From contig NC_058369.1 of assembly GCF_018350175.1 (NCBI RefSeq), forward strand, positions 13,826,001-13,890,000: a stretch of DNA of 64,000 bases, read 5' to 3'. The notes below the pieces were generated by a model. The model was not told the origin of the DNA. It did no database searches and worked only from the letters and a program-made list of their open reading frames with translations. Below, piece by piece: positions 29,593 to 38,537 of this stretch (positions are counted from its first letter, which is position 1; every line of letters begins with the position of its first letter). Source of the stretch: Felis catus. Taxonomy: Eukaryota. Position numbers and translations under genes: made by a program.

Positions 29593-32500
29593 ATGGACCC
29601 CCCGGACTCGGCCTCGAGGGTCTTCTGCAGCCGCATCCTAAGCATGGTGAATACAGACGACGTCAATGCTATCATCCTGGCTCAGAAGAACATGTGAGTG
29701 GTAGCCAAGGGCTGTGGGCCCCAGGCGTGGGAAGGAATCCACTCGCTGGCCAGCATTCTTGCCCTGTCTGCCCTTACCCTGGGCCCACACTGGTGATAAA
29801 ATGAAGGAAATGAGCAAATCTGCCGGCTGGCTCCAAAGTAAATTCCTTCCTGGCCTGGAGGCGAGGCCTTGGCACAGGAAGCAGGGCTTTGGGATGGTTT
29901 CGCAGCTGTGGGTGGCTTGGCAGGGGCTGTAGCAGCTCCTATCCCAAGGCCCGGGGTGGGCTGTTGGGGGAATAGGAAGGGGCTGCGGGAGGGGATTTAA
30001 GGAAGCCAGTGAGCTGATCTCCTGTTGGGAATCTAGTCTCTCACAGCCCAGGCTGTCTCTGCAGAGGACCTGTGGCCTTTTGGAGGGGCTGTCAACACCT
30101 TTGCCCTCCTTAAGGGCTTGGCACTGTGACCACTGTGACCGATTCCAGCCTGCTCTGTGGGGAAGAGAGGCTTACACAATCTTGGGATGGAAGCACAGCC
30201 TCCTGTGGCTTTATTTTTGTGTATTTAAGCCAATTTATGACACAGCAGCGACCTGATACCCTTCCATTTCTCTCCACCTGTGACAGGGGTACTGGGTTTG
30301 TCTGGGTCAGATTTAGGCCTGGCCTGGTGAACTCCCAGAATGAGGGGAGACAAAACCAGACACACACCATGGCCCCATGGTGTCAGGGCTGGGCCAGGGG
30401 AATAACCTGGGTCTAGGAACTCAGGGGAGTCAGAGTCTGCTTGAGGGAGGGTTTATACATGAGAAGGATGTACTTGGGTAGGGTTTTGAAGGTTGAGTAG
30501 GAGTTCGCTAGATGGCTCAAACAGCAGGTAGAGTTCTACATGGCAAGGAAACAACACGTGCAAAGGTCATGAAGCAGGAAAGGGCCTAGCACGATCAGTT
30601 TGTAGGGCATGGTTTGCAGGGCTGGTGCCTTCTCTTTGCTGCCAGGCTGGACCGCTTTGAGAAGACCAATGAGATGCTGTTGAATTTCAACAACCTGTCA
30701 AGCGCCCGCCTGCAGCAAATGAGCGAGCGCTTCCTGCACCACACAAGGACCCTGGTGGAGATGAAGCGGGACCTGGACAGCATCTTCCGCAGGATCAGGT
30801 GGGTCCCCAGCCTCTCTAGCTTCTGCCTCCCCCTCAGGTTTCTCCCCTCTTCGATGAGGATCATCCACTCTGCAAAACAGAGATTCTGCTAATTTGTTCT
30901 TTGAGGCTTCATCGCTCGCTTAGCGTCTGAGAAGATCTGAAGTTTGGGATAAAAAAATCTTGAAGTTTCTGGATTTAGATTTTATTTATCTTTCAATAAC
31001 TGCAACGTAGTACCAGATGCGGGATGCAAAAGGCAGGCAAGTGCAGACAGCGAAAGGCAAGTCTCTGGTCCTCCAGCCCCCGGCCCAGGTCTTCTCTCAA
31101 AAGGCATCTGAGATTGCCAGTTTTGGTGGGTCTTTTCTGAGCTGTTTTCTGTGAGGACAGGGAAGAATGACGTTCAGGTCCCTAAGCACGTAGAATGCTC
31201 AGCGCAGCACCCAGAGCCTGCATCACTGTGGCCACATGCCTGGGCCTGGAACTAGCCAGAGCTGCAGCTGTATTTCCAGCTGACAGCACCACTTACTCTG
31301 TCCTGGGGGCAGCCCCACCCACTGGCAGACTCAGGAACAGAAGATCATGAGACAGGCCAATTAAATCCCATATAAAAACACATATTTTCTGAGGTGTCTC
31401 ATCAGGCTGGTTGCCCAGGCGTGGTTTTGGGGGTGAGCAGGAACCCCAAGTGTTGGCATCTTTTGTGCATATCTGTATCACCCAGGAAGGGGATAGTTGT
31501 GTCTGCCCAGTTGCCTCATGGGTGGGGACCCAGCAACGGTGGTGCTTCTGGTGGGGACTGGGTCACCACAGTCAAGGATGAGACTCCACCCCCCGAAGAC
31601 CCCTTTGTTATTCTTTGTAAAGGTGACTTCATTACTTTTTTTTTTTTTTTTAATGCTTATTTATTTTTGACAGACAGAGCATGAGCGGGGGAGGGGCAGA
31701 GAGAGAAAGGGAGGCACAGAATCCGAAGCAGGCTCCAGGCTCTGAGCTGTCAGCACAGAGCCCCATGCGGGGCTCGAACCCACGAACCGTGAGATCATGA
31801 CCTGAGCCGAAGCTGGGCTGTCAACCGACTGAGCCACCCAGGCGCCCCGGTGACTTCATTACTTTAGGAAGAAGGGAAAAACAGCTGATTAAAAATGAAG
31901 GAGGCGTTTCTCTGTGAACGTCAGTTCCATGTATGCAAGTACTCAGTGTCTGGGGTGTGCATAATCACTCCTGGCCCCCACACAGACACTGTCATCCTAG
32001 TGGTGGGGGACAGGATGGGGCAAGTCACCCAGAGGAGCGACAGCTGAGGAAGGGGTGAGGAAGCCTCCTGGAGGGTTATCTGGGCAGGGAAGGATTAGAC
32101 CTAAGAAAGGCATTGCAGATAGAGGGCCTAGCCAGACCCAGCACGGAGGACACGCACAAGCTCTTGACAGCTGAGCAGCTGCCATCTATCCTGGGGCTGG
32201 GAGGTCCGCAGGGCTGAGCACATGGGCCTCCTTCCAGCCCAGGAGCAGAGTGACAAGCAGTAAAGGGTTGGGGGGAGTTCCCATCCCCCACCCACCTGGA
32301 ACTGCAGCAAGGGTTCCTGGCGTGCACCAGGCCCAGCCTGTCTGCTTGGCAGGTTCAGCCCTGTATGCCTTCCCTTCCCCTGCAGGACGCTGAAAGGGAA
32401 GCTGGCCAGGCAGCACCCGGAGGCCTTCAGCCGTAAGTGTCACCCAGGGCTCCTGTGCCCCACGTCTGGCCTCTGCACCCACGGATGCCAGCACCCTCGC

Positions 32501-36589: not shown

Positions 36590-38537
36590 ATGCAGATCTT
36601 TGTGAAGACCCTAACGGGCAAGACCATCACCCTCGAGGTTGAGCCCAGTGACACCATTGAGAATGTCAAAGCCAAAATCCAAGACAAGGAGGGTGAGTTG
36701 AGCGGAGTCCAGAGGTTCTGTTCAGCAGCAATCCCTCTCGGCCCAGAGGAGACACTGTCATGTGCAGGATGGGTGCTGGGCTCGTATAGACCTCAGCCTT
36801 GGCCAGTGCTTCCCTTGTGTGATCTTAAGAGGACAGCTTGTTCTCTCCACCTCAGTTTCTCCTTTGATAGGTTGGAGGCTATGCCAGAACACCCCTGCGG
36901 GGAGAAGGGAAGCTGCCAGCAATGTGCTTGCCAGAGTCTTAGTCTGAGCTTTCCTCTTCCCAGGCATCCCTCCTGACCAGCAGCGTCTGATTTTCGCGGG
37001 CAAACAGCTGGAAGACGGCCGCACTCTGTCAGACTACAATATCCAGAAAGGTACTGGGAGTTGAGTGGCTGGACAGAGGCCCGTGAGGCCTAGAACCAAG
37101 GAAGAGGCTTTGCAGGGATGAGGCTTTGATGGTCTCATTGGCAGCATTGGGGAGGGTGGGGGCAGGTGATCAGATGGGGCTAGAGGAGTCTTTTATAAAA
37201 TAATGTTTTCACTGGGGGAAGCATCTCCTGGTCGCCAGTTATGTTTCCAAGTGTGGCAGTGGTTTCTCTTGTTCTTGCTCACCTTTTTTTCTTTAAAAGA
37301 CTGTTTTGTTTAAAAATGTGCTAAGAGGGACACCAGTCTGGCTCAGTCAGTAGAGCACGCAACTCTTGATCTTTGGGTTGTGAGTTCAAACCCCACATCG
37401 AGTGTTGAGATTACTTAAAGATAACATTTTTTTTTTAACGTTTATATTGGAGAGAGAGACCGTGTGAGCAGGCAAAGGGCAGAGAGGGAGACATAGAATC
37501 TGAAGCAGGTTCCAGGCTCTGAGCTGTCCACACAGAGCCCAACATGGGGTTTGAACGCATGAACTGTGAGATCATGACCTGAGTCAAAGTCGGTTGCTTA
37601 ACTGAGCCACCCAGGCACCCCAAAAATAAAATCTTTTTTTAAATTTTTTATTTTTTTATTTTTTATTTTCGAGAGACAGAGCGTGAGCAGGGGAGGGGCA
37701 GAGAGAGAGGGAGACACAGAATCAGAAGCAGGCTTCAGGCTCCGAGCTGTCAGCACAGAGACCGATGCGGGGCTTGAACCCACGAACCGTGAGATCATGA
37801 CCTGGGCCAAAGTTGGACGCTTAACCGACTGAGCCACCCAGGCGCCCCCCCCCCCAAAAAATAAAATCTTTAAAAATATGTATAAAAATGTGACAAGAGA
37901 AATTTTGTCACTATCGTAAAGGAAATCCTTGTCACTTTCTGTAGCAACTAGGTTTAATTTCTCAGCAAAATGAAAGATCATCTTTACATCCCTCAGAAAT
38001 TACCTTGTCTGTTGAGAAACCCAATGCACATTATGGTTAGCATATATTAGTCTCAGACTGCCCAAAGCCTGGGCTGGTGGGAAGTGAGATGGAGGTTGTG
38101 TGGGGCGGTCTGGGCCAGTATGTCCATCTACGTATAGCGTACCCAAGGGATTCTCATTTGAGGAAGTTCTGGAGGGCCCTACCCTGCACCTGAGGTGCTG
38201 GGGCCAGGCTTGGTCACTGTCTCTCTTTGACCTTCCTCTCCTAGAGTCCACCCTGCACTTGGTGCTTCGCCTGCGGGGTGGCATCATTGAGCCTTCCCTC
38301 CGCCAGCTGGCCCAGAAATACAACTGTGACAAGATGATCTGCCGCAAGTGAGTACTCTCAGGGGATGGCAGGGGGTGGCTAGCCCCGGTGGGGAGGGCTT
38401 GGGTTGGGGTGTGTCCTCACCAGCCTCTCTCATCCTTCTGCAGGTGTTACGCTCGCCTGCACCCCCGTGCAGTCAACTGCCGCAAGAAGAAGTGCGGCCA
38501 CACCAACAACCTGCGCCCCAAGAAGAAGGTCAAATAA
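36590..38537 (+). CDS. UBA52: Ubiquitin-60S ribosomal protein L40 (eL40) fusion, 128 aa
   Basis: Exons 36590-36692, 36964-37050, 38245-38347, 38444-38537 (387 nt): [11 protein letters not shown]...LRLRGG followed by [52 protein letters not shown]. Confidence 0.99.
37326..37855. mobile_element. Three Can-SINEs in UBA52 intron 3
   Basis: One + copy and two - copies. The last is flanked by TSD AAAAATAAAATCTTT (37622-37636 / 37857-37871). Confidence 0.88.

What the first reader, a model, noticed from the sequence alone, without database searches (positions are those of the whole stretch)
29593..38537. KXD1-UBA52 read-through would encode an in-frame KxDL-ubiquitin-L40 fusion
Seen: the KXD1 poly(A) signal (34323) is only ~1.1 kb from the UBA52 start (35445) on the same strand. 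KXD1 exon 4 ends in phase 1 (...TTC AGC C|, 32432), right after the KxDL domain. UBA52 exon 2 has three CAG acceptors (exon starts 36579, 36582, 36588) leaving 11, 8 or 2 nt before the ATG. All three join in frame without a stop (linkers PVAE, LAE, Q), giving ~231 aa that ends at the normal UBA52 stop and so would escape NMD. Known: DUBs cleave UBA52 after Gly76, and N-terminally extended ubiquitin can still be conjugated. I recall mouse Kxd1 database entries grouping with ubiquitin peptides in proteomics, which would fit such a transcript, but this is unverified. Inference: a ubiquitin-like modifier carrying the BORC/BLOC-1-interacting coiled coil, which could tag substrates or place ubiquitin on the lysosome-positioning complex.
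Basis: partly seen in the sequence, partly recalled or inferred. Interest (0 to 1): 0.8.

Follow-up and report, generated by a model that had tools for sequence, protein, structure and literature searches.

The report
KXD1-UBA52 read-through, already annotated
Two neighbouring mammalian genes, KXD1 and UBA52, have splice sites that join in frame, and public annotations of many mammals already list the resulting KxDL-ubiquitin-L40 protein; it is likely a minor read-through by-product rather than a new ubiquitin-like modifier.

Summary
In detail: KXD1 exon 4 ends in phase 1 at 32432 and joins UBA52 exon 2 in frame at all three CAG acceptors (232/231/229 aa). It is less surprising than it looks. 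The acceptors lie 3 and 6 nt apart, so this is one 1-in-3 coincidence, the published rate for conjoined genes, and a stop-free linker is 91-95% expected. It is not new: 22 of 179 retrieved KxDL proteins are this exact fusion (RefSeq, GenBank and UniRef models from elephant shrew to apes, plus coelacanth; one named 'Kxd1//Uba52'). RefSeq has both tandem-acceptor forms in camels and warthog, which suggests real RNA. No read-level test was obtained for this species. Against a selected modifier: the skipped KXD1 tail is conserved (38/76 in coelacanth), the linker drifts, 0 of 20 UBA52 retrocopies carry KXD1, and no independent KxDL-ubiquitin fusion appears among 150 listed cluster representatives. 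Best reading: a low-level conjoined transcript whose product would be cut after Gly76 into eL40 and a conjugatable but swamped 180-aa KxDL-ubiquitin. My paper searches found no study of it. The scan had not noted it elsewhere.

The parts
29593..29693 (+). KXD1 first coding exon (coding part from ATG), phase-2 donor
   Evidence: translation matches stored KXD1 proteins (100/100 over residues 1-100 with P0005)
30646..30798 (+). KXD1 exon 3, core of the KxDL helix; single copy in G000
32386..32432 (+). KXD1 exon 4 (penultimate), ends in phase 1 just after the KxDL domain; donor of the putative chimeric intron
33372..33601 (+). KXD1 last exon, coding part: acidic, Pro/Ser/Thr-rich 76-aa tail, skipped in the fusion; single copy in G000
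34323..34328 (+). KXD1 poly(A) hexamer AATAAA (further hexamers at 34687 ATTAAA and 34762 AATAAA)
35445..35496 (+). UBA52 non-coding exon 1 with 5' pyrimidine tract, CpG-island promoter, alternative donors (best retrocopy fits 35474 and 35497)
36579..36589 (+). UBA52 exon 2 leader with tandem CAG acceptors (36579, 36582; a third at 36588); would encode the linker
36590..36692 (+). UBA52 exon 2 coding part (ubiquitin N-terminal part)
36964..37050 (+). UBA52 exon 3
38245..38347 (+). UBA52 exon 4: ubiquitin C-terminal diglycine and start of eL40
38444..38537 (+). UBA52 last exon coding part, stop at 38535-38537; AATAAA at 38607

Best explanation
KXD1 exon 4 and UBA52 exon 2 are splice-compatible and in frame, and polymerase that runs past the KXD1 poly(A) site likely yields a minor conjoined mRNA whose 232-aa product would be cut after ubiquitin Gly76 into normal eL40 and a 180-aa KxDL-ubiquitin that is likely a by-product without a selected role. 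Shown here: gene order, splice sites, frame, domain boundaries, database models. Inferred: read-through and penultimate-to-second-exon splicing over a 4146-nt chimeric intron instead of the 939-nt native one; escape from NMD (stop in the last exon); cleavage by deubiquitinases; trace conjugation or BORC incorporation, swamped by free ubiquitin and full-length KXD1. The frame is likely kept across vertebrates because the UBA52 5'-UTR intron sits at a fixed distance from the ATG, not because the fusion is selected.
For: Geometry is the commonest conjoined-gene pattern and about 1/3 of such events are in frame (PMC5431906, passages); 8 of 10 randomly chosen same-strand pairs under 10 kb gave such an RNA by RT-PCR (PMC2953495, passages). 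22 direct fusion models among 179 stored KxDL proteins: 5 with RefSeq XP accessions (camels, warthog, Chinese hamster, reed vole, star-nosed mole), 3 GenBank, 14 UniRef only. Camels and warthog carry both the 232- and 231-aa forms (P0121, P0019), which is best explained by RNA-derived introns (inference; that NCBI's pipeline uses RNA-seq introns is recalled). No sign of selection on the fusion: ten different linkers among 22, stop-free by chance 0.91-0.95, skipped tail conserved 38/76 in coelacanth and 40/76 in clownfish, 0 of 20 UBA52 retrocopies with KXD1 sequence upstream, no KXD1 retrocopy found, 1 of 150 listed KxDL cluster representatives carries ubiquitin and it is this vertebrate cluster.
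Against: No RNA read, level or peptide for the junction was obtained in this species, and none of the 22 fusion models is named as a carnivore protein. Many models may be copies projected from one mouse annotation. The pair is absent from all 33 supplementary files of one human conjoined-gene study when searched by gene name. On the other side, adjacency and frame are kept out to coelacanth (P0251) and probably alligator (P0254), and the junction falls one residue after the Pfam domain, which a functional fusion would also predict. Retrocopies reflect abundant germ-line mRNA and cannot exclude a rare or tissue-restricted functional form.
Confidence: 0.6

Rival explanations
1. Annotation echo: the junction is only frame-compatible; one mouse (or a few) rare cDNA-based models were projected onto other genomes, and this species makes essentially no such RNA.
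For: 14 of 22 models are UniRef-only, gene-build type entries; none of the fusion sequences lists Logan, ENA or JGI assemblies as a source; no carnivore model seen; 0 of 20 retrocopies; name searches of two conjoined-gene papers' supplements found nothing. Fukomys, alligator, Molossus and one hamster model join the genes at other points (P0052, P0254, P0115, P0089), showing that predictors merge these neighbours readily.
Against: RefSeq XP models in several orders, with both tandem-acceptor variants in camels and warthog; read-through between close same-strand genes is very common.
Confidence: 0.24
2. Functional modifier: a conserved KxDL-ubiquitin, released from eL40, enters BORC in place of KXD1 with ubiquitin at the outward tip, or is conjugated to substrates and tethers them to BORC/BLOC-1.
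For: Complete KxDL domain, short linker, intact ubiquitin and diglycine; adjacency and frame kept to coelacanth; BORC subunits point their C termini outward and the KxD1 C terminus is flexible (PMC12846789, passages); KXD1-GFP rescues KXD1-KO cells (PMC5640200, passages); N-terminally extended ubiquitin is conjugated.
Against: Frame compatibility at base rate; linker unconstrained; conserved tail lost; no independent KxDL-ubiquitin fusion among 150 of 534 representatives examined; no paper found on it.
Confidence: 0.1
3. Regulatory read-through: what matters is the RNA event, which diverts KXD1 output from the full-length protein, interferes with the UBA52 promoter, or supplies eL40 from an mRNA without the 5' pyrimidine tract.
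For: The chimeric mRNA would start at the KXD1 promoter and skip the UBA52 exon 1 pyrimidine tract at 35445; conjoined transcripts arise at the expense of the upstream gene (PMC5431906, passage).
Against: UBA52 is expected to be far more abundant than KXD1 (general knowledge; 20 loci with ubiquitin-gene similarity fetched versus no KXD1 retrocopy), so the contribution to eL40 would be negligible; no expression data obtained.
Confidence: 0.06

Closest known systems
Annotated Kxd1/Uba52 fusion models (e.g. CAH6779731.1 'Kxd1//Uba52', XP_012584613.1, XP_047632508.1/XP_047632509.1, XP_027250508.1, UniRef H2RFH8, A0A8C6IM32, H3AHU2)
   Same: Same junction, same architecture PF10241 + PF00240 + PF01020, 231-233 aa; the star-nosed mole model has the same PVAE linker.
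   Different: No model named for a carnivore was among those retrieved; all are predictions, none shown functional.
Conjoined genes / cis-splicing of adjacent genes (NME1-NME2, Kua-UBE2V1, TNFSF12-TNFSF13 as named in PMC2953495)
   Same: Same-strand neighbours under 10 kb, penultimate-to-second-exon join, both frames kept.
   Different: The downstream partner is a self-processing ubiquitin precursor, so the chimera would be cut into two products; RNA of the junction was not observed here.
Ubiquitin-eL40 precursor UBA52 and engineered protein-ubiquitin fusions (GFP-Ub, PCNA-Ub)
   Same: Intact ubiquitin with diglycine before eL40; an N-terminal extension that would leave conjugation possible.
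   Different: The extension is a natural BORC helix; Met1 is blocked, so it could not accept Met1-linked chains (established chemistry); no Gly-Gly at the KxDL-ubiquitin joint, so that joint would not be cut like a precursor bond.
KXD1/BORCS4 of BORC (C. elegans subunit in PDB 9tqb_E)
   Same: Whole KxDL domain retained (residues 14-99; PDB match E 6.5e-08).
   Different: The 76-aa acidic tail is replaced by ubiquitin-eL40.

Membership tests
Conjoined gene (cis-SAGe read-through) | Adjacent genes on the same strand, short gap | tested here: met
   1122 nt from poly(A) hexamer to UBA52 start
Conjoined gene (cis-SAGe read-through) | Canonical penultimate-exon donor and second-exon acceptor available | tested here: met
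   GT at 32433, CAG acceptors with pyrimidine tracts
Conjoined gene (cis-SAGe read-through) | Junction observed in RNA | tested here: inconclusive
   No read-level result for this species; only database models in other species; 0 of 20 retrocopies
Conjoined gene (cis-SAGe read-through) | Both parental frames kept (chimeric-protein class) | tested here: met
Ubiquitin-like modifier (type I, conjugated) | Ubiquitin fold ending in diglycine | tested here: met
   Pfam PF00240 107-178 in P0123; model pLDDT block means 79-89 over residues 111-170
Ubiquitin-like modifier (type I, conjugated) | Precursor cleavage exposing the diglycine, then E1/E2/E3 conjugation in cells | not testable with these tools
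   Shown only for engineered fusions in PMC2063781 and PMC9703124 (passages)
Ubiquitin-like modifier (type I, conjugated) | Dedicated, selected gene product | tested here: inconclusive
   Frame kept to coelacanth, but linker variable, skipped tail conserved, no independent fusions
BORC subunit KXD1 | Complete KxDL helical domain | tested here: met
   PF10241 1-86/86 on residues 14-99; helices 6-94 in a low-confidence single-sequence model
BORC subunit KXD1 | Assembly with BLOC1S1, BORCS6 and BORCS8 | not tested
   No complex prediction or experiment run

The most novel reading that the evidence does not exclude
Jawed vertebrates keep KXD1 beside UBA52 because read-through makes a natural KxDL-ubiquitin modifier: released from eL40, it is conjugated to substrates or built into the tip of BORC, coupling ubiquitin signals to lysosome positioning. 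It has been hidden because proteomics assigns its peptides to ubiquitin.
Probability: 0.1. Interest if true: 0.75.

Novelty: already known. Interest (0 to 1): 0.27.

Why it matters
Practical: mouse proteomics hits labelled Kxd1 can be ubiquitin peptides assigned to the fusion entry (one search shows the grouping), so such hits should not be read as BORC biology. Conceptual, if the product is made in quantity: it would be a natural protein-ubiquitin fusion with a free diglycine, a counterpart of engineered GFP-Ub, and easy to test. As it stands it is an annotated, apparently unstudied read-through of an ordinary kind.

Tried and rejected
Read-level test of the junction: runs were listed but no laying result was obtained, so RNA support in this species is open. 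(search with residues 60-125 of the fusion) was crowded by polyubiquitins and added nothing; one search likewise returned only ubiquitin and eL40 chains in the 60 rows shown. Retrocopy search for a fossil chimeric mRNA: none in 20 loci taken from the 37 matches (tandem polyubiquitin repeats and the gene itself left out; L012 appears to be polyubiquitin-derived) and no second copy of KXD1 exon 3 or 5; weak evidence, since KXD1 itself left no retrocopy. Papers: Yang et al. 2012 (Traffic 13:1160) and Hayes et al. 2011 (Traffic 12:260) are not held; I have an unverified recollection that Yang 2012 mentions a longer second mouse Kxd1 transcript. Searches for kxd1a, kxd1b, kxd1-uba52, c19orf50-uba52, uba52-kxd1 gave 0 papers; KXD1 plus UBA52 gave 9 papers, none about a fusion by listing (passages read in 2 of 9). 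One search was too loose to inform. Supplements of PMC2953495 (the conjoined-gene catalogue) could not be read and may list the pair; those of PMC5431906 (33 files), PMC13429570 (4 files) and PMC13068346 (3 files) had no KXD1 hit. The single-sequence fold (mean pLDDT 58.5) only restates the domains; no fold search or complex prediction was run because both parts are textbook. Rejected: that three in-frame acceptors are three coincidences; that the proteomics grouping shows the junction peptide.
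Full report
Setting. The window is G000:C2:13826001-13890000 of a 2.43-Gb genome, likely a cat-family carnivore: translation of KXD1 intron 4 read by eye matches the intron-retaining tail of the lion entry P0028. 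Pfam hits place ELL and an FKBP gene on the minus strand upstream, and REX1BD and an Ig/fn3 cytokine-receptor-like gene downstream (the names FKBP8 and CRLF1 are recalled). The same neighbourhood is listed on chicken chromosome 28 (PMC7379350, passages).

Observation. All coordinates hold. KXD1 has coding exons 29593-29693, 30646-30798, 32386-32432 and 33372-33601 (176 aa). Exon 4 ends at cumulative base 301, phase 1. UBA52 has a pyrimidine-rich start at 35445, 1122 nt after the AATAAA at 34323, and exon 2 offers CAG acceptors at 36579, 36582 and 36588. Each joins exon 4 in frame and without a stop (232, 231, 229 aa; linkers PVAE, LAE, Q); donors of exons 2 and 3 do not (0 of 6). Pfam KxDL covers residues 14-99, ubiquitin 107-178 and L40e 182-231 in the equivalent stored protein P0123.

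Is it more than chance? Hardly. The acceptors differ by 3 and 6 nt, so they share one frame: one event at about 1/3. A study of drug-induced conjoined genes reports about 1/3 in frame and the penultimate-to-second-exon join as the commonest pattern (PMC5431906, passages). Another verified such RNAs in 8 of 10 random same-strand pairs under 10 kb and found both frames kept in 16% (48/297) of catalogued cases (PMC2953495, passages). A random 8- or 11-nt leader after this donor, with a purine at -3, is stop-free 95% or 91% of the time. The domain boundary is a property of KXD1 itself, whose last exon encodes the whole low-complexity tail.

Which acceptor? Twenty ubiquitin-gene-like loci of G000 (20 of the 37 matches) serve as fossil mRNAs. 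Best fits: 11 nt in 13, 8 nt in 2, 2 nt in 2 (imperfect alignments), unclear in 3. Database fusions agree: 17 of 22 have four linker residues, 5 have three, none has one. The 232-aa PVAE form is thus the main candidate, not the 231-aa LAE form. None of the 20 loci has KXD1 sequence upstream, and KXD1 exons 3 and 5 are single-copy; this is weak evidence because KXD1 left no retrocopy at all.

Already annotated. Searches with KXD1 exon 3 (120 of 343 listed) and with the junction region (120 of 186 listed), plus cluster look-ups, gave 179 KxDL proteins, 26 with ubiquitin, 22 of them the direct exon-4 join. Five carry RefSeq XP accessions (camels, warthog, Chinese hamster, reed vole, star-nosed mole), three are GenBank (rhinoceros, elephant shrew, and 'Kxd1//Uba52' in Phodopus), fourteen are UniRef only (apes, monkeys, sifaka, rodents including Mus, elephant, coelacanth). 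Camels and warthog have both the 232- and 231-aa forms, which I infer come from RNA-supported introns; many others may be projections. Four more models join the genes at other points (P0052, P0254, P0115, P0136), so predictors do merge these neighbours. None of the 22 is named as a carnivore protein, and the exact sequence predicted for this window was not looked up. The recalled proteomics link is real: KXD1 is grouped under 'Ubiquitin_dom' with UBB, UBC, RPS27A and UBA52 in a mouse study (PMC13068346, passages), and E9QNP0 appears as KXD1 in a muscle iTRAQ table (PMC9397561, passage). Shared ubiquitin peptides explain this without any junction peptide (inference).

RNA evidence in this species. 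Runs holding the region were listed, but no read-level result was obtained, so use and level of the junction remain open.

Mechanism. Shown: geometry, frame, domains. Inferred: polymerase passes 34323 before cleavage, exon 4 splices across 4146 nt (native intron 939 nt) to the UBA52 acceptor, and the mRNA ends at the UBA52 poly(A) site with its stop in the last exon. From established ubiquitin biology, deubiquitinases would cut after Gly76, releasing eL40 and a 180-aa KxDL-linker-ubiquitin. Engineered fusions of this layout are conjugated (PMC2063781, passages; PMC9703124, passages, citing Qian 2002, which I saw only as a reference). Incorporation into BORC is sterically plausible: C termini face outward and the KxD1 C terminus is flexible (PMC12846789, passages), and KXD1-GFP rescues knock-out cells (PMC5640200, passages). 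A single-sequence model of P0123 (mean pLDDT 58.5) shows long helices 6-94, a loose linker and a confident ubiquitin.

Selection. For: adjacency and frame reach coelacanth (P0251) and probably alligator (P0254; its four residues before the ubiquitin Met suggest an 11-nt leader, inference). Against: ten linker variants in 22 sequences; the skipped tail is conserved, 75/76 in bear, 38/76 in coelacanth, 26-47/76 in the seven non-mammals tested; among 150 listed of 534 KxDL representatives at 50% clustering only the vertebrate fusion cluster P0046 carries ubiquitin or eL40. A fixed intron position next to the UBA52 ATG explains the kept frame without selection on the fusion; the control (leader length where the genes are not adjacent) could not be run.

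Literature. Ten searches found no paper describing the chimera; the two founding KxDL papers are not held and the conjoined-gene catalogue's supplements were unreadable, so prior description is not excluded. Earlier findings of this scan: none on relatives of this stretch; one unrelated ubiquitin-like fusion, not used.

Verdict. Real sequence feature, already in public annotation, of an ordinary kind; likely a minor read-through (0.6), possibly only an annotation echo in this species (0.24), with a small chance (0.1) of a functional KxDL-ubiquitin modifier. Interest 0.27.

Noticed in passing
window 35356-35473: An ATG in the UBA52 CpG-island promoter reads open to the exon-1 donor at 35474 and is in frame with UBA52 (42-43 extra residues). 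A bat model (P0135, 178 aa) starts in the similar region. It lies upstream of the main start at 35445, so only read-through or upstream-start RNAs could use it.
   Followed up: partly
window 35445-35497; L001-L020: UBA52 exon 1 has several GT donors; retrocopies fit mostly 35497 and 35474. Most retrocopies differ from the present gene at the same exon-1 and leader positions, so they predate those changes; L003 carries the present exon-1 letters and is likely younger.
   Followed up: partly
window 34687 and 34762: Two further poly(A) hexamers lie between KXD1 and the UBA52 promoter; ATTAAA at 34687 has a GU-rich downstream stretch (12 GT/TG in 41 nt versus 6 for 34323) and may act as a fail-safe site limiting read-through.
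   Followed up: no
window 33471: A GTG-type donor-like site inside KXD1 exon 5 would also join UBA52 in frame; no evidence of use.
   Followed up: no
G000:C27:5314053-5316664 and G000:C37:9488516-9489303: Tandem ubiquitin repeats at 228-nt spacing, 12 and 4 matched units: the UBC- and UBB-type polyubiquitin genes (names recalled).
   Followed up: no
window 37327-37870 and 31636-31851: Carnivore-type SINE copies: a cluster of nested or tandem copies in UBA52 intron 3 and one in KXD1 intron 3; their A-rich tails give AATAAA at 37625 and 37860 inside UBA52 intron 3.
   Followed up: no
window 38607-41347: REX1BD (Pfam PF14966) follows UBA52 on the same strand within about 2 kb, a second candidate read-through pair.
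   Followed up: no
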